DNA of 64,000 nt from a bacterium (GTDB lineage: Bacteria > UBA8248). A program made the position numbers and the translations under genes. Of the stretch, positions 26,282 through 34,828 are shown piece after piece. How positions within the stretch are numbered: position 1 is the first letter of the stretch; each line of letters begins with the position of its first letter. The stretch is from contig OZ241326.1 in assembly GCA_965199855.1 (NCBI GenBank), positions 2,272,001 through 2,336,000 of the forward strand, written 5' to 3'. The notes below the pieces were generated by a model. It was not told the DNA's origin. It worked only from the letters and a program-made list of their open reading frames with translations, and did no database searches.

Positions 26282-27655
26282 GTGATGTTCAAGCATATCA
26301 ACCTCAAAAACTTCAAGGCGTGGCGGGAGCTCGACATCCCCCTAGGCCGGAGAATTACGGGACTTTTCGGGACCAACAGCTCGGGCAAGAGCAGCCTGAT
26401 CCAGTTCCTGCTCATGCTAAAAGAGACGAAGAACAACCCAGATCGCAACCTGGTCCTGGATTTCGGGGAATTCGGCGAGTTGATTAATCTGGGCAGCTTC
26501 GGCGACGTCATCCACGGAAAAGACGAAAAGCAGAAACTGGAATGGCGTTTGGATTGGAATGCCAAGGAGGAGGTCAAACTCCAAGATACCACCAAGGGCC
26601 GAAACAAAAACCTGGTTTCTTCCAAAGAGCTTTCAACAGAATCAGCTGTGACAATGCCGAAAGGGTCAAAGTCTCCGAAAACCCTGTTCATCAAATACGC
26701 AATCGGAGATATGACTTTCAAAATCGAGACGAAAGCTAAGCAGGAAAGCAGTTTTCGCCTTAGCTCATCCGGCTCGGATTTCGAGTTCCGCCGAATCCAG
26801 GGCAGGCCCTGGCAACTGCCCGGCCCCATTAAAACACATCTATTTCCCGACCAAGCGAAAACGTATCACCAGAATGCCGATTTACTAAGCGATCTGGAGG
26901 TAGCGTACGAAAAACTGTTTGATAGCGTTTTCTATCTCGGCCCGCTCCGAGAATATCCACACCGGCAATACAACTGGAGTGGCGGCAGTCCTCTCGACGT
27001 AGGCGTTCGAGGCGAACTCACCATGAACGCGATCCTCGCCGCATCGGAAAATGGAAGCGACTATCAGATGAGAAAAAGGGGCAGAAAACGCTCTTTTCAG
27101 GAAGTAGTCGCCATGAGACTTCAGGAAGTGGGGCTCGTCCATTCCTTTTCGGTAGCCGAAATCGCCAAGGGCTCCAACATCTACCAAGCGAAGGTGTCGG
27201 TGAAAAAAGAGAGCCCGGAAGTCCTTTTGACGGACGTGGGCTTCGGCGTATCCCAGGTTCTTCCGGCCGTCGTACTCCTGAATTATGTCCCGAAAAATTC
27301 TACGGTCATCCTTGAGCAACCGGAAATTCACCTGCATCCCAGGGTTCAAAGCGAGGTGGCGGACGCTATCATCGCCATTGCCGAAACGAGGGATTTACAA
27401 GTGATCGTAGAAAGCCACAGCGAGCACATTCTGCGCCGGCTTCAGCGGCGGGTGGCCGACGAAACCATACAGGCGGACTTGGTGAAACTCTATTTCGTAT
27501 CGCAGGAGAACGGCGAGGCGCGCCTTTCGGACATCGGCCTGAACGAATACGGAGAAATACAGAACTGGCCTGAGCATTTCTTCGGCGACGATATGGAGGA
27601 AATCTCGGAGACCAGAAAGGCCGCTCTGAAGCGCAGAATGGCCGCCGGGCAATGA
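26282..27655 (+). CDS. ABC-type ATPase (AAA_15/AAA_21-like) with DUF3696-like C-terminus
   Basis: LKNFK, Walker A GTNSSGKS, signature VGFGVSQ, Walker B ILEQPEIHLHP, H-loop ESHSEH, tail GEIQNWPEHFFGD; AT-richer codons. Confidence 0.9.
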   Translation: MMFKHINLKNFKAWRELDIPLGRRITGLFGTNSSGKSSLIQFLLMLKETKNNPDRNLVLDFGEFGELINLGSFGDVIHGKDEKQKLEWRLDWNAKEEVKLQDTTKGRNKNLVSSKELSTESAVTMPKGSKSPKTLFIKYAIGDMTFKIETKAKQESSFRLSSSGSDFEFRRIQGRPWQLPGPIKTHLFPDQAKTYHQNADLLSDLEVAYEKLFDSVFYLGPLREYPHRQYNWSGGSPLDVGVRGELTMNAILAASENGSDYQMRKRGRKRSFQEVVAMRLQEVGLVHSFSVAEIAKGSNIYQAKVSVKKESPEVLLTDVGFGVSQVLPAVVLLNYVPKNSTVILEQPEIHLHPRVQSEVADAIIAIAETRDLQVIVESHSEHILRRLQRRVADETIQADLVKLYFVSQENGEARLSDIGLNEYGEIQNWPEHFFGDDMEEISETRKAALKRRMAAGQ

Positions 27656-28143
27656 CGGACAGGTTTGTCATTGACACCAACGTCTTGGTCGTGGCGAACG
27701 GAAAGAGTCGTCAAGCCGATCCCAAATGCCAAATCGCTTGTATCGAGATGTTGGAGGGAGCTACCAAAGGGAAACGGGTTGCTCTCATCGACACCTGCAA
27801 TCTCATCATGGATGAGTACAAACTTCATTGCAGCTTTGCGGGAGAACCCGGCCCCGGGAACGCCTTCTTCAAGTTCCTGCATGACAACGAGTTTTCACAA
27901 AACAGCGTCATTCCCGTCCCGGTTCAAAAAACGCCGGACAAGGCCGGTGGATTCTCGAACCTTCCCCCGAACAAACTCGACAGGAGCGACAGGAAATTTC
28001 TGGCCGTCGCAAAGGCAGGGAGCGGGCGAATCGTCAACGCCACGGATTCGGACTGGTCGCAACATGCCGAGTTCATCGCCTCCGTCGGCGTCCAAGTCCG
28101 CGAACTCTGCCCGCAATGTCTGAAACAAAATGAGATAGGATAG
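27652..28143 (+). CDS. PIN domain ribonuclease-like protein
   Basis: VIDTNVL, MDEY, DRSDRKFLAVA, ATDSDW acidic tetrad; ATGA overlap with the ATPase. Confidence 0.85.
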   Translation: MTDRFVIDTNVLVVANGKSRQADPKCQIACIEMLEGATKGKRVALIDTCNLIMDEYKLHCSFAGEPGPGNAFFKFLHDNEFSQNSVIPVPVQKTPDKAGGFSNLPPNKLDRSDRKFLAVAKAGSGRIVNATDSDWSQHAEFIASVGVQVRELCPQCLKQNEIG

Positions 28144-28260
28144 AAACCAAACGTCGTAATCTTCGTTTTCCATCCCCCCCCGCAATCAGCCGAAAGAGGC
28201 GCTCTTTCCGGCGCGTTGTCCGCCATCCGGCTGAAACCTTGCGTTTTTCCCATGCGTCCG

Positions 28261-28560
28261 CGCGGTGCGCATTTGCCCGCATTTGCGCGTTGCGCGCCGT
28301 AAAGCCGATGCGTCAGAATCCCGCGCGTGAGGGCCGGAGAGAATTCTCCCGCCGTTCCCGGAGGATGGGACGACGTATTCAACGCGCGTGAAACAGATAT
28401 GGCGGCGCGAATGAAAATCATCCCGCATTTCTGCAAATTCAGACAAATTCACAGCTGTTTCAAAGCTTTTTCAGACAAATTCATGGCCCTTTCACAACCT
28501 TTTTCGGCGCGGGGAAAAGGCGGAAGGAGGCTTTCGTCATCCCCATAAGCGTTTGATATG
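28261..28560. repeat. Non-coding dispersed element, copy 1 (att-site/MITE-like)
   Basis: Reverse complement aligns with 33580-34035; block 28304-28354 matches 33945-33995 at 49/51 nt. Confidence 0.9.
28546..28558 (-). promoter_or_regulatory. IHF consensus site in element copy 1
   Basis: Minus strand TATCAAACGCTTA = WATCAANNNNTTR. Confidence 0.6.
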
Positions 28561-28580
28561 TGAAGGGATGGGCGGATTTC

Positions 28581-29453
28581 TCAGGATTCGGAGTTGACGA
28601 GGTAGATGCCCGCCGAAATCAGCGCCGCGCCGCCGAGCATGAGAATCGTCAACGGCTCGGCGAGCAGCAGCGCGCCCAGAAAGACGCCGAAAACGGGTGT
28701 GAGGAACATGAAAGCGCTCACGCGGCCCGCCGGGTAGTCCTTGAGCAGCCACAGCCAGGGAATCATGGCGAGGCCGGTGCCGATGACGCCGTTGTAGCCC
28801 ACGCCCAGAAGCACGTTGGCGTCCCCCAGGTCGGGCCAGGGCTCCCCCCGGAGCGAGGCGATGAGGAAAAAGGGCGGGACGGCGAGCGCCTGCGTCCAGG
28901 CGGTGATCCGGAAGGCGTCGAAGCTCCTGAGCCGCGTCTTGAGAAACACCGACTGCGCCGCCCACAGGACGGCCGCCAGGATGACGATGACGTCGCCCAG
29001 CCAGGTGGAGCCGCCGGCGGAGGAGAGCTTGTCGCCGAACAGGAGCGCCATGCCGAGGCTCGCCGCCCCGAACCCCGCTACGGCGCGCGCGCCCACCCGC
29101 TCCTGGGGGAGAATCCACGCCGCCAGCCCCGTGAGAATCAGCGGCTGGGCGTAGAGGAACAGCGAGGCGCGCCCGGCGGTGGTGTGGTGCACGCCGTGAT
29201 AGTAGGTGAGAAACATGAGGTTGTGCAGGCAGGCGTTGATCCAGAAATCGGCGTTTTCCCGCCCTCCGCCCAGGCGCGGCGGCTGAACGGGCATCTTCCG
29301 CAGGAGCATGACCGCAAAGACGATTCCCGCCGAGCACAGCCCCCTCAGCCAGAGAAACGTGAAGGGCTCCACCCCGCGCAGGCCGACCTTCGCCGCCGGA
29401 AAGCTCAGCCCCCAGAGGAAGGTGACGGAGAAAATCAGGACGAAAAACCGCAA
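28581..29453 (-). CDS. DMT/EamA family transporter
   Basis: LWG, FLYAQP, FMFLTPVFG, LLAEP; about 10 TM segments. Confidence 0.9.
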   Translation of the reverse strand: MRFFVLIFSVTFLWGLSFPAAKVGLRGVEPFTFLWLRGLCSAGIVFAVMLLRKMPVQPPRLGGGRENADFWINACLHNLMFLTYYHGVHHTTAGRASLFLYAQPLILTGLAAWILPQERVGARAVAGFGAASLGMALLFGDKLSSAGGSTWLGDVIVILAAVLWAAQSVFLKTRLRSFDAFRITAWTQALAVPPFFLIASLRGEPWPDLGDANVLLGVGYNGVIGTGLAMIPWLWLLKDYPAGRVSAFMFLTPVFGVFLGALLLAEPLTILMLGGAALISAGIYLVNSES

Positions 29454-29529
29454 CGCTCATCTCCGCCTTGAACGAATCCGCCGCGCGCCGGGAAGCGGGC
29501 GGAGGGCGAAACCCGCCGGACCGCCGCCT

Positions 29530-30153
29530 TCAGCCCTCGGATTCCATTTTGCGGGGAAACGGCTCGAGAGCCTTCAAGTCCACCTTCTGCTCCAGTTCGT
29601 CGTGGCAGGCGTCGCAGCGCGGCTGCGCCGTCGCCGCCACGAGGAAAGCCTTCTCCCGCGCCCCGCCCATCCGGTGGCCGTTGTGGCACTGCACGCAGTC
29701 CGCCTTGAGCTCCGCGTGGTCCGAGATGGCGTGAAAGGCGCCGTCGGCCAGCGCCAGCAGGCGCGCCTCGTCGTGGCACTTGACGCAGTCCTTGTCGGGA
29801 ATGGGGTGAAACACGCGTGAGGGCTGCTCGAAGTCGCCGATGACGAACTTGTAGAGATCCTTGCCCGCCAGAAGCGTCGTGCGGATCATCCCCGCGATCC
29901 CCTCCTCCCCGTGGCAGGAGATGCACCGCGCCGCGTCCGCGCCCTTGTGCCAGCCGGCCAGCGTCCGCGTCCGCGCCTTCGGGCGCATCCCGTCGTCGAG
30001 ATAATCCTGGTGATCCCGGAGATGGCAGGCCGTGCAGAAGGGATCGTAGGATTCCACGGCGCGAATCCCATGCAGTCCGCCCAAGCCGAGCAGCGGAGAG
30101 AGCGCGGCCGCGAGAATCAGCCATTTCCACCAACGCCCCCGCGCGCTTCGCAT
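29530..30153 (-). CDS. Membrane-anchored pentaheme cytochrome c (NapC/NirT-like N-terminus)
   Basis: CTACH, CISCH, CVKCH, CVQCH, CDACH after an N-terminal TM helix. Confidence 0.88.
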   Translation of the reverse strand: MRSARGRWWKWLILAAALSPLLGLGGLHGIRAVESYDPFCTACHLRDHQDYLDDGMRPKARTRTLAGWHKGADAARCISCHGEEGIAGMIRTTLLAGKDLYKFVIGDFEQPSRVFHPIPDKDCVKCHDEARLLALADGAFHAISDHAELKADCVQCHNGHRMGGAREKAFLVAATAQPRCDACHDELEQKVDLKALEPFPRKMESEG

Positions 30154-30283
30154 TCAGGCTCCCCTCGGCGCGGACGCGCCGGCGTCCGTCCCGCCCGTCC
30201 GCCGGGACGAATGAACCTCCCTCCATCTTCCGCATTATAGCGCGATTTGCTAGGATGCGCCGTGAACGAGGGAGGCCGCGCCG

Positions 30284-30646
30284 ATGGCGAGAACGAGATT
30301 CAGCGCGAAAAGACGCCGCCCGGGACGCGGGAGCGCCCCCGCTCCCCCCGCCGGCTCCGCCGAAAGCGCGAGACGGATCGCCGCGCGCCTCAAGTCCTCG
30401 GCGAGCGTGGGCAGGAGCGCACGGGACTACCGCCGCAGGTCGCTCGAGATTCACGGCTGGTTCTGCGCCAAGTGCGGCCGGGACTTCGACGAGAGCAATC
30501 TCCACGCCCTCACGGTTCATCACAGGGACGGCGATCACAGGAACAACCCGCCGGACGGAAGCAACTGGGAGAACCTCTGCGTGGACTGCCATGAGGACGA
30601 GCACTCGCGCGACATGCTCGGCCGCTATCTGAGCGGCGAGCACTGA
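30284..30646 (+). CDS. yajD: YajD family HNH nuclease
   Basis: CAKC..LTVHHRDGDHRNNPPDGSNWENLCVDCHEDEHSR. Confidence 0.88.
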   Translation: MARTRFSAKRRRPGRGSAPAPPAGSAESARRIAARLKSSASVGRSARDYRRRSLEIHGWFCAKCGRDFDESNLHALTVHHRDGDHRNNPPDGSNWENLCVDCHEDEHSRDMLGRYLSGEH

Positions 30647-30661
30647 AAAGCGCCGTCTTCG

Positions 30662-31954
30662 ATGATCCTCTCGGTAAAGCCCTCCTCCGCCAGGGGAGCG
30701 GCCGGCGTCCCCGGCTCGAAATCCCACTCCATCCGCGCCGTCGCCCTCGCGTCGCTGGCCTCGGGCGAGAGCGCGATATTCAACCCCCCGGATTCCTCGG
30801 ACGGCCTCTCGGCCGCGCGCGTCTATGAGAGCCTGGGCGCCGAAATCCACAAAGAGAAAGAGGTCTGGCGCGTCAGGGGCTTCGGCGCGCGGCCTGGGGC
30901 GCCGCGCGGGGTTCTCGACGTGGGAAATTCGGGAACCACCTGCCGGATGGCGCTCGGAACGGCCGCGCTCCTGCGCGAGGGCGAGGCCCGCTTCGACGGC
31001 GACGCCCAGACCAGAAAGCGCCCGATGGGGCCGCTGCTCGAGGCGCTCTCCAACCTGGGCGCGAAGGCGGAGGCGAACAACGGCCTCCTCCCCGCCTCGG
31101 TGCGCGGCCCATGGCGCGGCGGTCGGACGAGGGTGGACGGGACGACCAGCCAGTTCACCTCCTCCCTGCTGCTGAACGCGCCCTTCGGGGAGGGCGCGAG
31201 CGTCGTCGAGCCGATCGGCCTGAACGAGCGCCCCTACGTCGAGATGACGCTCTGGTGGCTGGATCGCCTGGGTCTCGAATATGAGCGGGATGAATGCCGG
31301 AGCTTCGCGATCCCCGGCGGACAGGCGCTGTCGGGGTTCGAGATAGCCGTCCCCGCCGACTGGAGTTCCGCCGCCTTTCTCGCGGCCGCGGGCGCGCTTC
31401 CGGGCGGGGACGTCGCCCTCGAGGGCCTGGACATGGACGACCCGCAGGGCGACAGGGAAATTCTCCGGTTCCTGGAGGAGATGGGCGCGGAGGTCTCCGC
31501 CACGGAGGCGGGCGTCAGAGTCCGCGCGCGGGCGCTGCGCGGCGGAGAGTTCGACCTGAACGCCACGCCGGATCTCCTGCCCGTCATGGCCGTCCTCGGA
31601 GGGTTCGCGGATGGGGAGACCAGGCTCCTGAACGCGCCCCAGGCGCGCATCAAGGAGACGGACAGAATCTCCGCCATGCGGAAAGTCATCGAAGCCCTGG
31701 GCGGCGAGGCGAGAGAGCTGGCGGACGGCCTCGTCGTGCGGGGGGGCGGGCTGCGGGGCGGGGCGGTTCACGGCTTCGGCGATCACCGCGTCGTCATGGC
31801 CGCCGCCGTCGCCGGGCTCGCCGCTCCCGAGGGGGCGTCTGTGGACACGGCCGAAGCGATGGCGGTAACCTTCCCCGATTTTCGCGAGCGCATGGCCGCG
31901 CTGGGCGCCGAGATGGAAGCGAGGGATTCGCCCGATGCCGATCTACGAGTATGA
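30662..31954 (+). CDS. aroA: 3-phosphoshikimate 1-carboxyvinyltransferase (EPSP synthase)
   Basis: PGSKS, GNSGTT, SQFTS, RIKETDRI, DHR. Confidence 0.96.
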   Translation: MILSVKPSSARGAAGVPGSKSHSIRAVALASLASGESAIFNPPDSSDGLSAARVYESLGAEIHKEKEVWRVRGFGARPGAPRGVLDVGNSGTTCRMALGTAALLREGEARFDGDAQTRKRPMGPLLEALSNLGAKAEANNGLLPASVRGPWRGGRTRVDGTTSQFTSSLLLNAPFGEGASVVEPIGLNERPYVEMTLWWLDRLGLEYERDECRSFAIPGGQALSGFEIAVPADWSSAAFLAAAGALPGGDVALEGLDMDDPQGDREILRFLEEMGAEVSATEAGVRVRARALRGGEFDLNATPDLLPVMAVLGGFADGETRLLNAPQARIKETDRISAMRKVIEALGGEARELADGLVVRGGGLRGGAVHGFGDHRVVMAAAVAGLAAPEGASVDTAEAMAVTFPDFRERMAALGAEMEARDSPDADLRV

Positions 31955-32267
31955 ATGCAGGGGGTGCGGCTTCATTTCCGGGCACCTGGTGATGAAGCCC
32001 TCCGACAGGAGGAAGCTCGCCTGCCGCGCCTGCGGGGAGACGAAGCTGCGAAAAGTCATGTCGCGCTTCTCCTCCCACCAGACGGAAGACCAGCGGCTCG
32101 AGGGGTTCGACCCTTCCAGGCCGCAGGATGCGTCCTTCTACAAGGACGACCGCAATATCGGGCTATGGGCGCAGAAGCGCGCCCGGCAGATGGGCGTGGA
32201 TCTCGGCGATTCCTTCGGCGAAATCCTCGAGAAGGGCCGCTCGAAGAAGATTCTCGACAACCTTTGA
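31935..32267 (+). CDS. FmdB family zinc-ribbon protein
   Basis: MPIYEYECRGCG...CRACG. Confidence 0.88.
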   Translation: MPIYEYECRGCGFISGHLVMKPSDRRKLACRACGETKLRKVMSRFSSHQTEDQRLEGFDPSRPQDASFYKDDRNIGLWAQKRARQMGVDLGDSFGEILEKGRSKKILDNL

Positions 32268-32292
32268 GGCCGCCTTGACGCCTGAAGCGAGC

Positions 32293-32955
32293 ATGAGCGA
32301 GGCGCTTCGCGCGGAAGCGGAGCCGCTCTGGGAGAAAATCCACGAGCATCCCTTCGTGCGCGGCATCGGCGACGGGACGCTGCCGATGGAGCAGTTCCGC
32401 TTCTACATGCGGCAGGACTACGTTTTCCTGAAGGAATACAGCCGCGCCATCGCCCTGGCCGTCGTGAAGGCGCCCGGGCTCGAGGAGATGGGCCGCTTCG
32501 CCGACCTGCTGAACGCCACGCTGAACACGGAGATGGCGCTGCACCGCAGCTTCGCCGGAAAATTCGGCGTCTCGGCCGAGGAGATCGAGGCGACGCGGCC
32601 CGCCCCCGCCTGCAGGGCCTATGCGGATTTTCTGCTGGAGGCGGCCTTCTCCGGCGCCTTCGGGGAAATCGCCGCCGCCATGCTGCCCTGCCAGTGGGAC
32701 TACGCCGTCATCGGGAAGCGGCTCGCCGAGCGGGGAATTCCCGAAAACGCGCCGCTTCACGCCGAATGGATAAAGACCTACGCCTCGGAGGAATTCGCCC
32801 GGCTCGCCCGCTGGATGCGCGACATGCTCGATGCGGCCGCTGCGGCCGCCGGCCCGGCCGAGCGGGAGCGGATGCGCGCGCGCTTTCTGACGGGGACGCG
32901 CTACGAATACCTCTTCTGGGAGATGAGCTGGCGCATGGAGGATTGGCCCCTGTGA
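32293..32955 (+). CDS. tenA: Thiaminase II (aminopyrimidine aminohydrolase)
   Basis: HPFV..IGDGTL, YMRQDY, LPCQW, EYLFWEM. Confidence 0.93.
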   Translation: MSEALRAEAEPLWEKIHEHPFVRGIGDGTLPMEQFRFYMRQDYVFLKEYSRAIALAVVKAPGLEEMGRFADLLNATLNTEMALHRSFAGKFGVSAEEIEATRPAPACRAYADFLLEAAFSGAFGEIAAAMLPCQWDYAVIGKRLAERGIPENAPLHAEWIKTYASEEFARLARWMRDMLDAAAAAAGPAERERMRARFLTGTRYEYLFWEMSWRMEDWPL

Positions 32956-32974
32956 ACCCCGGCCCGAGGAGGAC

Positions 32975-33565
32975 GTGACGCCCCGCGCGCGAAAAGCCCC
33001 GCCCGGCTCCCGGCGATGCGAATGGGCCGAGGGCGACCCGCTCATGGAGAAATACCATGACGAGGAATGGGGCTTTCCCGTCCGGACGATCAGCAGGCAC
33101 TTCGAGCAGCTCACCCTCGAGATTTTCCAGGCCGGACTCTCCTGGCGAACGATTCTCCACAAGCGCGCGGCGTTCCGCGAGGAATTTCGGGGGTTCGCGC
33201 CCGGGAAGGTCGCCCGCTTCACCGAGCGGGACGTCGTCCGCATTCTCGGAAACCCCGGCGTCGTGCGAAACCGCAGGAAAATCGAGGCGACCATCCGGAA
33301 CGCCAAAAGGTTCCTGGCCATCGAGAAAAAGCGCGGATCGTTCAACCGCTACCTCGCCTCCCTGCCTGACGATCTTCCCTCGCTGCAAAGGATATTCCGC
33401 GAGGAATTCGTCTTCATGGGCCCCAAAATCGCCGAAGCCTACCTCGAAAGCGTGGGCAGGATACCCGAACCCCACGATCCGCATTGCTGGCGGGCGGAGG
33501 AGGCGAAACGCCGGGCTTCGGGCGGCGGGCGTTCTCCCCAAGGCGTGAGCGCCTCATCTTCATAA
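32975..33565 (+). CDS. tag: DNA-3-methyladenine glycosylase I
   Basis: RCEW, YHDEEWG, FQAGLSW, RNRRKI, HDPHC. Confidence 0.93.
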   Translation: MTPRARKAPPGSRRCEWAEGDPLMEKYHDEEWGFPVRTISRHFEQLTLEIFQAGLSWRTILHKRAAFREEFRGFAPGKVARFTERDVVRILGNPGVVRNRRKIEATIRNAKRFLAIEKKRGSFNRYLASLPDDLPSLQRIFREEFVFMGPKIAEAYLESVGRIPEPHDPHCWRAEEAKRRASGGGRSPQGVSASSS

Positions 33566-33581
33566 ATCGCACATCATTTAT

Positions 33582-33594
33582 TATCAATAACTTG
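33582..33594 (+). promoter_or_regulatory. IHF consensus site in element copy 2
   Basis: TATCAATAACTTG = WATCAANNNNTTR in AT-rich context. Confidence 0.65.
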
Positions 33595-33770
33595 AATCGC
33601 TTTATTCAAAGCGGAACGAGAACCTCGCCGCCTTTCGATTCCCGCCGTCAATTTGTCGAAAAAGGTCGTGAATTTGTCTGAAATAGCTGTAAAACAGCTG
33701 GGAATTTGTCTGAATTTGCAGAATAAAGAAGGATGATTTTTCACTCGCGCCGACATATCCGTTCAACGCG

Positions 33771-33796
33771 CGTCATTCCGGCGCAAGCCGGAATCC
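33771..33796 (+). repeat. CGTC-tagged REP-like palindrome
   Basis: CGTCATTCCGGCGCAAGCCGGAATCC: 8-bp stem with GCAA tetraloop. Confidence 0.8.
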
Positions 33797-34093
33797 GGCG
33801 TTGCTTCGTCGGCTCCGGGTTGCGGCGATCCCTCCTCTCCGTCGAGGTTGACGCCGCAACGACGATGAAGCGCCGCAAGCCTTCAACGCGCGTCAAACAT
33901 ATCAGCGCCTTTTCATCATTCCCCATCCTTCCGTCCTCCCGGAGCGGCGGGAGGATTCTCTCCGGCCTTCACGCGCGGGATTCTGACGCATCGGCCTGGC
34001 GGAGCGAAACGCGCAAATGCGGGCAAATGCGCGCCGGGGGCGATTGACAGCCCTCCGCTCCCCAAATCCCGCCAATCGCTGGCCGCGCGAGGG

Positions 34094-34828
34094 TCACTCC
34101 AGGGGTTCGATGTCCGCGTAGATGACTGTGGGACGCCGGCCTTTCGACCGCGCGCCATCGGCGTCCGCGCCGGCCGCCTCCCTCTCCACGACGCGCCCGG
34201 CTCCGGCGCGAACCGGCGCGGAGAACATCGGCCCATCAACCACGCAGGTGTGGAATTCGCCGTTCTCGCCCAGAGGGTCGGCTCCATGCGGCAACTCGGC
34301 GACGAAGCGGGCGTCGAACCATCTGCCCGCGAACCGGGCGGGCAGCTTCGCCGGATCGACCGCCGTCACGATGGCCCTGAGGCCGGCGTCCATCATCTCC
34401 CCGGCGAGTTCGGAGGTGTTTCGCCCCCATATCGGAAACAGGGGCGCGAAGCCGGTTCCCCTTAAATTCTCCTCCCGCCAGCGCCGGACGTCCTCCAGAA
34501 ACAGGTCGCCGAACGCCAGGCGCGACGCGCCGAGGCCCTCCGGCAACGCGCGGACGCGGGCGAGGAACCCCCGCATGGCGGCCTCGTATTCCTCGTTCGG
34601 GCAGGGCCAGGGGATGGGCATCTCGTAGAGCGGAAGGCCGAGCCTCTCCGCCTGGGCTTCGAGCGCCCAGCGCGGCGTGGCCTGGATGGAGACGCGATCG
34701 AAGGCGGCGGTCACGGTCGTGAAAATCCCCCGCACCTCCCAGACGTCGGGCCGCCGGCGGAGCGCGTGGAGCGCCCACGCGGAATCCTTGCCGGACGACC
34801 AGGAGACGAGCACGGGCTCAGGCGGCAT
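34094..34828 (-). CDS. PP-loop ATP pyrophosphatase (Dph6/MJ0570-related)
   Basis: SWSSGKDS, FGDLFLED, DPLGENGEFHT. Confidence 0.9.
   Translation of the reverse strand: MPPEPVLVSWSSGKDSAWALHALRRRPDVWEVRGIFTTVTAAFDRVSIQATPRWALEAQAERLGLPLYEMPIPWPCPNEEYEAAMRGFLARVRALPEGLGASRLAFGDLFLEDVRRWREENLRGTGFAPLFPIWGRNTSELAGEMMDAGLRAIVTAVDPAKLPARFAGRWFDARFVAELPHGADPLGENGEFHTCVVDGPMFSAPVRAGAGRVVEREAAGADADGARSKGRRPTVIYADIEPLE

What the first reader, a model, noticed from the sequence alone, without database searches (positions are those of the whole stretch)
28261..34035. Recombinase-less att-like element in two inverted copies: IHF site + facing 10-bp arm repeats + palindromic core
Seen in copy 2 (+): IHF consensus 33582-33594; CAATTTGTCG 33649, GAATTTGTCT 33670 and 33702, GAATTTGCAG 33712, with palindrome AGCTGT-AAA-ACAGCT (33685-33699) between; core TTCAACGCGCGTCA; a 51-bp conserved block; then GCGCAAATGC-GGGCAAATGC (34011-34030), the same G(A/C)ATTTG(T/C) motif inverted. 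Copy 1 has the same modules on the minus strand (IHF 28546-28558; arms 28431-28450, 28473-28482 and 28269-28288; core 28378-28392). The IHF consensus positions are kept while the N4 spacer and flanks differ, suggesting selection on protein binding. Established: lambda-type tyrosine integrase att sites combine tandem ~10-bp arm sites, IHF sites and a core. Inference: a non-autonomous miniature integrative element or landing pad acted on by a recombinase encoded elsewhere. No integrase or transposase is in the window.
Basis: partly seen in the sequence, partly recalled or inferred. Interest (0 to 1): 0.85.

Follow-up and report, generated by a model that had tools for sequence, protein, structure and literature searches.

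The report
Orphan integrase landing pads flanking flipped genes
The two inverted non-coding copies belong to a lineage-specific family of repeats whose AT-rich block is where integrase-carrying genomic islands insert in sister species; this genome has no such integrase, and here the pair brackets a five-kilobase block of housekeeping genes that has been flipped.

Summary
Both copies and every listed motif sit at the stated places, with one start off by a base. The IHF consensus occurs only twice in the 64-kb window, both times here.

The copies are two of about 50 modular intergenic repeats in this genome. Modules are an IHF-like site, an AT-rich "A block" of phased GAATTTGTC units, and a "B" pair of GCAAATGCGG units. 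The modules were found in 18 of 22 other genomes of the genus and hardly outside it.

- **Integration site.** In sister species the first A unit is the insertion point of islands carrying tandem lambda-type tyrosine integrases. It lies at the junction in 17 of 17 informative loci. One orthologous empty/occupied pair shows a ~94-kb island flanked by an 11-bp direct repeat. A second integrase group uses the other end of the A block (4 of 4).
- **No integrase here.** This genome has only XerC/XerD-like recombinases and no island relics. All its A units carry a one-base variant (GTC, not ATC).
- **Flipped block.** The 5-kb gene block between the copies is inverted relative to the sister genome and changed orientation at least 4 times in the genus. 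One flip's crossover maps inside the A block.

The "landing pad" reading is partly supported. The scan had noted this repeat family at two other loci of this genome, without the integrase link.

The parts
28263..28560 (-). Copy 1 of the modular repeat (outward from the eamA-like gene: IHF-like site, A units, variable middle, B units)
   Evidence: Inverted arms; pairwise alignment; module order as in family consensus
28546..28558 (-). IHF-consensus site TATCAAACGCTTA, 35 bp from the stop of the eamA-like gene
28431..28482 (-). A units of copy 1 (GAATTTGTCT, GAATTTGTCT-GAATTTGCAG). The first unit, the type that is the att core in relatives, is degenerate in this copy
   Evidence: no intact first unit found in G000_L
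28378..28394 (.). Near-palindromic TTCAACGCGCGTGAAAC, start of the H hairpin-repeat type
   Evidence: family D4
28269..28288 (-). B units (GCGCAAATGC GGGCAAATGC) at the outer end of copy 1
28581..33565 (.). Segment S between the copies: EamA-type transporter (-), multihaem cytochrome c (-), YajD-like HNH (+), aroA (+), FmdB-type zinc ribbon (+), tenA (+), tag (+). Inverted relative to the sister genome
   Evidence: gene calls; families; orientation in relatives
33566..34036 (+). Copy 2 of the modular repeat
33582..33594 (+). IHF-consensus site TATCAATAACTTG, 17 bp from the stop of tag
33650..33721 (+). A block of copy 2. First unit CAATTTGTCGAAA (33650-33662) is the GTC-variant counterpart of the AATTTATCGAAA att core of relatives. 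Further units at 33670, 33702 and 33712
33776..33895 (+). Extra ~120 bp of the H hairpin-repeat type (ATTCCGGCGCAAGCCGGAAT), bounded by direct repeats TTCAACGCGCGTCA (33762-33775 and 33882-33895). Absent from copy 1
34011..34030 (+). B units at the outer end of copy 2
27652..28143 (+). Flank gene U (163 aa, no family hit). It lies next to tag, not next to the eamA-like gene, in G001, G016 and G019
34094..34828 (-). Flank gene D (244 aa, ATP-pyrophosphatase-like). It lies on the eamA side of the block in G001, about 3 kb from the eamA-like gene

Best explanation
The two copies are members of a genus-restricted family of modular intergenic repeats. Its AT-rich A block, made of phased GAATTT(A/G)TC units, is a chromosomal attachment site (attB) for GInt-like genomic islands. 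These islands carry two tandem lambda-type tyrosine integrases plus HTH proteins.

In sister species such islands sit in the first A unit, flanked by an 11-bp direct repeat. A second integrase group uses the third unit. The genome that holds the window has lost or never had these integrases. Its roughly 50 copies, including these two, are therefore unoccupied, orphan sites carrying a one-base variant of the core.

Because the two copies lie in inverted orientation on either side of a 5-kb housekeeping block, recombination between them flips the block.

Shown:
- family membership;
- the attB role in relatives;
- the inversion relative to the sister genome;
- a crossover inside the A block for one flip in relatives.

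Inferred:
- that the flip in this genome went through these arms;
- whether integrases or RecA did it;
- that the IHF-like and B modules bind proteins.
For: Family:
- A motif, 110 hits; B motif, 110 hits.
- 49 structured copies in three arrangements, all intergenic.
- The modules are the best-conserved columns within the families and across species.
- Found in 18 of 22 other genomes of the genus and in 2 of 18 outside it, weakly.
- The A-block pattern has 0 hits in viral contigs. It has at least 121 stretches in genome contigs, of which the 80 listed are MAG records titled Nitrospinota or Nitrospinaceae or with no taxon in the title.

attB role:
- G012 versus its sister G002 at the orthologous eamA flank. 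G012 has ~94 kb inserted after AATTTATCGAAA. The far junction restores GATTTATCGAAATACCCCGTGAATTTATC, followed by 426 bp that are 84% identical to the G002 flank.
- 17 of 17 informative loci with an integrase at least 76% identical have the A unit about 238 bp upstream of the integrase start, followed by a conserved island end. 11 of the 17 have upstream sequence of the types that precede intact A blocks.
- 4 of 4 loci of a second group abut the 3' part of the A block.
- Both integrases carry Arm-DNA-bind_3, Phage_int_SAM_3 and Phage_integrase domains; the next ORFs are HTH_17.

Orphan state:
- Only XerC-like and XerD-like tyrosine recombinases; no serine recombinase, IS110, DDE_Tnp_1 or rve.
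- 0 matches to the island integrase; no island-end relics.
- GTGAATTTGTC in all 49 G000 matches, against ATC in 32 of 32 (G014) and 40 of 40 (G002).

Inversion:
- The block lies U-eamA..tag-D here and D-eamA..tag-U in the sister G001.
- At least 4 changes on the tree of 13 scored genomes, by my parsimony count.
- G002_L matches G016_R from the first base of the A block outward (374 bp, 87%). G002_R matches G016_R from the gene stop to the last base of the A block.
Against: - No cognate integrase exists in this genome, so nothing shows that its GTC-type units can be used by any enzyme.
- A metagenome scan for an occupied GTC-type junction gave only chance hits: 0 of 80 fetched loci with integrase or island end.
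- The first A unit of copy 1 is degenerate.
- G001, G008 and G019, the closest and basal relatives, lack the elements at this locus yet differ in block orientation. Not every flip needs these arms, and ancestry versus independent gain of the arms in this genome is unresolved.
- The IHF-like site at a fixed distance from the A block is strong in this genome's P1 family (at least 13 of 17 copies at 38 bp). It is not at a fixed place in 80 A-block loci of relatives.
- No population-level inversion was seen in contigs of related strains.
Confidence: 0.7

Rival explanations
1. Plain repeat-mediated inversion. The copies are BIME/NIME-like architectural or selfish intergenic repeats. Their only effect here is to give RecA a pair of inverted homologous arms. 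Integrase targeting in relatives is incidental, in the way insertion sequences target REP elements.
For: The arms are 88-89% identical over 64-111 nt. Within-genome arms resemble each other more than the corresponding arms of other species in G000 and G014, as expected from gene conversion. This genome has no integrase. The same family forms two other inverted pairs in this genome, one with a documented inversion (earlier notes e1-1888262 and e1-774380; coordinates matched). IHF-binding mosaic repeats are known from E. coli BIMEs (passages read in PMC3184786).
Against: In G002 and G016 the shared inverted sequence is only the 56-bp A block (56 bp at 95% and 64 bp at 89%), yet the crossover lies there. 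The same block is the insertion point in 21 of 28 informative integrase loci. The all-copies one-base switch is hard to explain for neutral repeats.
Confidence: 0.2
2. Non-autonomous mobile element (MITE- or CIME-like). The ~300-500-bp units move or moved in trans through an integrase or transposase, and the two copies are independent insertions next to the gene ends.
For: About 50 copies, all intergenic. The sister genome G001 has only 2 first-unit matches against 22 here. All copies, including these two, share the lineage-specific GTC variant. G001, G008 and G019 lack the arms at this locus.
Against: No transposase or integrase in the genome. I did not find terminal inverted repeats or target duplications bounding the units; this was by eye on the alignments, not an exhaustive test. 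Modules occur in several different orders. 9 of 17 P1 copies travel with paralogous autotransporter genes, which fits segmental duplication. The arms are at the same place and in the same order in 9 of 10 crown genomes examined.
Confidence: 0.12
3. Dedicated invertible switch. A site-specific invertase flips the block at population level, as in Hin/hix, fim or shufflons.
For: Inverted sites bracket the same block in many species, and the block is found in both orientations.
Against: No serine recombinase and no extra tyrosine recombinase in the genome. No dif-like site in the copies: best 11-13 of 22 arm positions, a score reached thousands of times in the genome. A 12.7-kb contig of a related strain is colinear, and no strand-changing joint occurs at the arms other than repeat collapse. 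The content is housekeeping genes with no promoter logic.
Confidence: 0.04
4. Non-coding RNA gene or shared regulatory region.
For: The folds are more stable than shuffles (z -2.3 and -3.5).
Against: No Rfam family at gathering score, and only one weak sub-threshold hit. The stability comes mainly from the extra hairpin-repeat insert of copy 2. The middle of the element is not conserved between species. No consistent promoter or terminator. No orientation bias towards neighbouring genes: my count for the P2 type is 16 co-oriented and 11 convergent of 27.
Confidence: 0.03

Closest known systems
attB sites of GInt-type genomic islands (gin operon of tandem tyrosine integrases plus an HTH protein at the island's 5' end, large cargo, short att repeats; definition read in the introduction of bioRxiv 10.1101/2024.06.12.598671)
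   Same: In relatives the islands have tandem tyrosine integrases followed by HTH_17 proteins at one end, ~94 kb of cargo in G012, and an 11-bp direct repeat at both junctions.
   Different: Two integrases, not three. Many copies per genome (up to 26 integrase matches). The target is a dispersed ~50-copy intergenic repeat, not a unique gene end. The window's genome has the targets but no island.
Dispersed repeats as targets of mobile elements: REP sequences as IS targets (cited in PMC3184786, passage read); Neisseria dRS3/NIME repeats as integration sites of Nf prophages (recalled; only the search listing was seen)
   Same: A short dispersed intergenic repeat serves as a multi-copy landing site and as a substrate for rearrangements.
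   Different: Here the enzyme is a heterobivalent lambda-type tyrosine integrase pair and the inserted DNA is a large island. Different integrase groups use different positions or different repeats.
BIMEs with IHF sites (RIP/RIB) of enterobacteria and Correia elements of Neisseria (PMC3184786, passages read)
   Same: Modular intergenic repeats that carry an IHF consensus and are linked to recombination and inversions (CREE-mediated inversion, PMC3454330, passages read).
   Different: No REP palindromes with a GTAG head in these two copies. The modules are phased direct repeats, not hairpins. No terminal inverted repeats were found.
Inversions between inverted repeats in bacterial chromosomes, including the earlier finding e1-1888262 in this same genome
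   Same: A housekeeping gene block is flipped between two inverted non-coding copies.
   Different: The arms are conserved at this locus across the genus. The block changed orientation at least 4 times, and one crossover maps to a 56-bp integrase attachment block.

Membership tests
attB of a lambda-type tyrosine integrase | A cognate integrase is encoded in the same genome | tested here: not met
   PF00589 gives 2 hits, XerC-like and XerD-like. The island integrase gives 0 matches in G000.
attB of a lambda-type tyrosine integrase | Orthologous empty and occupied sites, with the core duplicated at both island junctions | tested here: met
   Met in relatives only. G002 is empty and G012 is occupied, with ATTTATCGAAA at both ends of a ~94-kb insert. 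Nothing of the kind is in G000.
attB of a lambda-type tyrosine integrase | Recurrent use of the same core by related integrases | tested here: met
   17 of 17 informative loci of the closest group, and 4 of 4 of a second group at the other end of the A block.
attB of a lambda-type tyrosine integrase | The sequence variant present in this window (GTC) is recombination-proficient | not testable with these tools
   No GTC-type occupied junction was found in 80 fetched metagenome loci. This needs an enzyme assay.
MITE / non-autonomous transposon | Terminal inverted repeats, target-site duplication, a related transposase | tested here: inconclusive
   No transposase families in the genome. No clear unit ends in the alignments. 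No empty-site test of whole units was possible.
REP/BIME with RAYT | Palindromic REP units and a Y1 (RAYT) transposase | tested here: inconclusive
   One RAYT-like ORF is present. The hairpin repeat ATTCCGGCGCAAGCCGGAAT is inserted in copy 2. The A and B modules are direct repeats, not REP palindromes.
Xer-dependent (dif-like) module | A 28-bp XerC-spacer-XerD site at the borders | tested here: not met
   The genome's dif lies at 1,898,075. The best match in the copies is 11-13 of 22 arm positions, which is within background.
Invertase-driven switch | A dedicated invertase and both orientations within one population | tested here: not met
   No serine recombinase. Contigs of related strains show one orientation (contigs cannot show rare forms).

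The most novel reading that the evidence does not exclude
The dispersed repeats of this sponge-associated Nitrospinota genus form a genome-wide grid of landing pads that co-evolves with a radiating family of tandem-integrase islands. Each integrase group is aimed at a different unit or a different repeat. The integrases also catalyse pad-by-pad recombination that flips and shuffles housekeeping blocks. The integrase-free lineage holding this window has switched one base of the core in all of its ~50 copies, either as an escape from targeting or as the footprint of a lost integrase with changed specificity.
Probability: 0.25. Interest if true: 0.8.

Novelty: new variant of a known kind. Interest (0 to 1): 0.6.

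Why it matters
Integrative islands normally use one or a few unique sites, such as tRNA genes or gene ends. Here a lambda-type integrase family uses a ~50-copy intergenic repeat as its site. This could explain how sister species carry many islands, with up to 26 integrase matches per genome. It would also tie island traffic to chromosome rearrangement.

The genome that holds the window offers a natural control. It has the same pads, no integrase and a one-base variant of the core, so target-enzyme co-evolution becomes testable. The core (ATTTATCGAAA) with its integrase pairs is also a defined multi-site integration system that could be assayed directly.

For annotation, these repeats should not be read as mobile elements or RNA genes in this genome.

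Tried and rejected
- **Rfam.** Nothing at gathering score in the window except a tRNA. One weak sub-threshold hit in 28100-34150.
- **Promoter and terminator scans.** 0 and 1 promoter-like sites, 0 terminators.
- **RNA folds.** Modest z-scores that come mainly from the extra insert.
- **Xer/dif idea.** The first A unit of relatives resembles the XerC arm of this genome's dif (10 of 11 by eye), but no full dif-like site exists in the copies. The GTC variant also does not track dif. Dropped.
- **By eye only, no tool.** Sigma-54 promoter, DnaA box, Fur box and Tn7-end resemblances; none fitted.
- **Population-level inversion.** Only Logan contigs were available. One related strain is colinear, and unitigs break at the repeats, which is repeat collapse. 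No support, and contigs cannot show rare forms.
- **Expression.** No RNA holder listed.
- **Viral contigs.** 0 matches to the A-block pattern.
- **Metagenome scan for an occupied GTC-type junction.** At least 120 chance hits. 0 of 80 fetched loci hold the integrase or the island end.
- **Truncated integrase in G022.** Its junction is at a different, degraded place and is uninformative.
- **Global pairwise identities by segment.** Too noisy, with a baseline of 70-78%. Replaced by the BLAST segment test.
- **Orientation versus replichore, and versus neighbouring gene direction.** No clear bias (by my count).
Full report
**1. The observation**

The only slip is CAATTTGTCG, which starts at 33650, not 33649. 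The repeat finder gives two inverted arm pairs: 28263-28373 / 33926-34036 (111 nt, 88%) and 28429-28492 / 33660-33723 (64 nt, 89%). Copy 2 has an extra ~120 bp (33776-33895) bounded by two copies of TTCAACGCGCGTCA.

The IHF consensus WATCAANNNNTTR occurs twice in the 64-kb window, at exactly the two reported places. Expectation is 0.10, and 0 of 100 shuffles reach two. The genome encodes four HU/IHF-family proteins. One scores best as IHF-alpha and one as IHF-beta, both just under the curated cut-offs.

Both copies lie between convergent genes. Copy 1 lies between a 163-aa gene (27652-28143) and an EamA-type transporter gene. Copy 2 lies between tag and an ATP-pyrophosphatase-like gene.

**2. 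A family, not a pair**

The pieces recur all over the 3.04-Mb genome.

| Motif | Hits |
|---|---|
| A motif GAATTTGTCTGAA | 110 |
| B motif GCAAATGCGGGCAAATGCG | 110 |
| Hairpin repeat ATTCCGGCGCAAGCCGGAAT | 121 |

The hits form 49 structured copies in three arrangements:

| Type | Copies | Layout |
|---|---|---|
| P1 | 17 | ~500 bp; B, IHF site, A block, variable part, B |
| P2 | 27 | A region reversed, then B units |
| P3 | 5 | A block, then B; includes the two copies of the window |

All 49 are intergenic and show no clear bias towards neighbouring gene direction. In the P1 and P2 alignments the A and B modules are the best-conserved columns.

Of 38 intergenic IHF-consensus sites in the genome, 18 lie within 90 bp of an A motif. 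At least 13 of these are in P1 copies, at a fixed 38 bp.

The earlier notes e1-774380 and e1-1888262 describe two other inverted pairs of this genome. Their coordinates coincide with P1 copies 2403961/2427874 and P2 copies 2225394/2232063 of my list.

The modules were found in 18 of 22 other genomes of the genus and in 2 of 18 more distant genomes, weakly. An A-block pattern has 0 hits in viral contigs. It has at least 121 stretches in genome contigs. The 80 rows listed are MAG records titled Nitrospinota or Nitrospinaceae, or carrying no taxon in the title.

**3. The gene block between the copies flips in evolution**

The block is an eamA-like gene, a cytochrome c gene, a yajD-like gene, aroA, a zinc-ribbon gene, tenA and tag. 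Here it lies U-eamA..tag-D. In the sister genome G001 it lies D-eamA..tag-U, with both flanks consistent.

Among 13 genomes I could score, 8 have the arrangement of the window and 5 the opposite one. One of the 8, G013, has a further rearranged D side. On a tree of five block proteins the states need at least 4 changes by my parsimony count.

In 9 of 10 crown genomes examined, the block is bracketed by the same modules in mirror order: B, A, IHF-like site, block, IHF-like site, A, B. The modules are on one or both sides, and within those 20-kb regions they occur almost nowhere else.

G001, G008, G009 and G019 have no such arms at this locus. So not every flip can be laid at the arms' door. Whether the arms of this genome are inherited or regained is open.

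Contigs of related strains (about 1-3% different) show the window's orientation in one case. Otherwise they only break at the repeats. I saw no sign of switching within a population, and contigs could not show a rare form.

**4. Where the crossover lies**

G002 (window-type orientation) and G016 (opposite) are in one clade. Their two arms share only the 56-bp A block: 56 bp at 95% in G002 and 64 bp at 89% in G016.

The G002 eamA-side flank matches the G016 tag-side flank from the first base of the A block outward (374 bp, 87%, E 6e-114). The two tag-side flanks match from the stop codon to the last base of the A block (177 bp, 77%). The exchange therefore happened inside the A block.

**5. The A block is an integrase attachment site in sister species**

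In G012 the eamA-side A block stops after AATTTATCGAAA. Two tandem integrase genes follow 238 bp further on.

The other flank gene lies about 95 kb away. Just before it the sequence reads GATTTATCGAAATACCCCGTGAATTTATC. It then runs on for 426 bp at 84% identity to the uninterrupted flank of the sister G002. This is an occupied site beside an orthologous empty site, with an 11-bp direct repeat (ATTTATCGAAA) at both junctions of a ~94-kb insert.

Both integrases have an arm-type DNA-binding domain, a SAM-like domain and the catalytic domain. The next two ORFs are HTH_17 proteins.

| Genomes | Matches to this integrase |
|---|---|
| G000, G001, G008, G015, G019 | 0 |
| G009 | 1 (weak) |
| Other 17 genomes of the genus | 2 to 26 each, mostly as tandem pairs |

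Junctions, grouped by identity to the query and by junction word, not by a tree:

| Integrase group | Loci | Junction |
|---|---|---|
| At least 76% identity | 17 of 17 informative | A unit at the junction, then a conserved island end |
| At least 76% identity | 2 more | Cut by contig ends, uninformative |
| Second group, 71-75% identity | 4 of 4 | Abuts the 3' part of the A block right after TTTATC, in the opposite orientation |
| Further loci | 2 | Abuts CCGGAATGAC, the edge of the hairpin repeat |
| Further loci | 3 | Another target |

Among the 17 loci of the first group, the upstream sequence differs from locus to locus. In 11 of the 17 it is one of the three sequence types that precede intact A blocks elsewhere.

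**6. What this means for the window**

The genome holding the window has only XerC-like and XerD-like tyrosine recombinases. It has one RAYT-like ORF. It has no serine recombinase and no IS110, DDE_Tnp_1 or rve transposase. It has no relic of the island ends.

Its A units differ from those of the crown species by one base. GTGAATTTGTC is found in all 49 matches here. GTGAATTTATC is found in 32 of 32 (G014) and 40 of 40 (G002). The reversed-pattern control gives 0. The sister G001 has only two first-unit matches, one of each kind.

In the window, copy 2 keeps an intact first unit (33650-33662). In copy 1 that unit is degenerate.

The two copies are thus best read as orphan, unoccupied landing pads that also serve as the arms of an inversion. 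Whether integrases or RecA made the flips is inferred, not shown. No dif-like site is present.

**7. Comparison with what is known**

The islands fit the GInt design: tandem tyrosine integrases plus an HTH protein at one end, large cargo and short att repeats (introduction of bioRxiv 10.1101/2024.06.12.598671 read). They have two integrases instead of three, and they target a dispersed repeat.

Repeats as targets of mobile DNA and as substrates of inversions are known. Examples are REP as IS targets, and BIMEs and Correia elements with IHF sites (passages of PMC3184786). Correia-mediated inversion and dRS3-linked rearrangements in Neisseria are further examples (passages of PMC3454330).

My searches turned up no description of this repeat family or of a lambda-type integrase family aimed at a ~50-copy repeat. 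These were four word searches of the held library, not a proof of absence.

**8. Limits**

- No RNA data and no raw reads were available.
- Gene calls outside the window are my own codon-usage heuristic.
- Roles of the IHF-like site and the B units are unexplained.
- The junction survey covers 30 of more than 200 integrase matches.

Noticed in passing
G000 genome, e.g. 23690, 97014, 749811, 931186, 1129721, 1431187, 2225598, 2232041, 2357945 (outside the window): 17 parS-like sites (TGTTCCACGTGGAACA, up to 2 mismatches). 14 of them sit 22-32 bp from a B motif inside P2-type repeats, and they are spread round the whole chromosome rather than clustered near the origin.
   Followed up: partly
G000 genome, P1 copies such as 304884, 1179981, 1991039, 2701579, 2939233: 9 of 17 P1 copies, plus one P3 and one P2, adjoin members of one paralogous family of ~1200-1380-aa autotransporter-like proteins. 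The gene is on the side of the element's outer B end in 8 of the 9. The one locus examined in detail has a ~2-kb mosaic of hairpin repeats in between.
   Followed up: partly
window 33762-33895; loci L228 and L239: The ~120-bp hairpin-repeat insert of copy 2 is bounded by a 14-bp direct repeat TTCAACGCGCGTCA. In two relatives a further integrase group has its junction at CCGGAATGAC, the edge of the same hairpin repeat. This repeat may be another attachment site.
   Followed up: partly
G000:C1:1898075-1898102: A single perfect dif-like site TCTTTCGATAAGATATATTATGTAAAAT lies at the cumulative GC-skew maximum. The next best match in the genome has 16 of 22 arm positions.
   Followed up: yes
loci L066-L079, flanks of the eamA..tag block in relatives: Just outside the arms, the relatives carry variable accessory DNA: PIN/MazE and Rv0623-like toxin-antitoxin pairs, HipA, GmrSD, a 2010-aa helicase-nuclease, Fic, IS110 and Mutator transposases, a group II intron reverse transcriptase and an autotransporter.
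   Followed up: partly
locus L066 (G001): tenA is missing between the zinc-ribbon gene and tag in the sister genome G001.
   Followed up: no
G000 genome: The 3.04-Mb genome has no hit to five common transposase or recombinase families (PF00239, PF02371, PF01609, PF00665 and the island integrase). The larger crown genomes of the genus carry up to 26 integrase matches.
   Followed up: partly
G000:C1:2896300-2896848 (locus L085:301-849): A 182-aa RAYT-like (Y1 transposase) ORF, the only Y1_Tnp hit in the genome.
   Followed up: no
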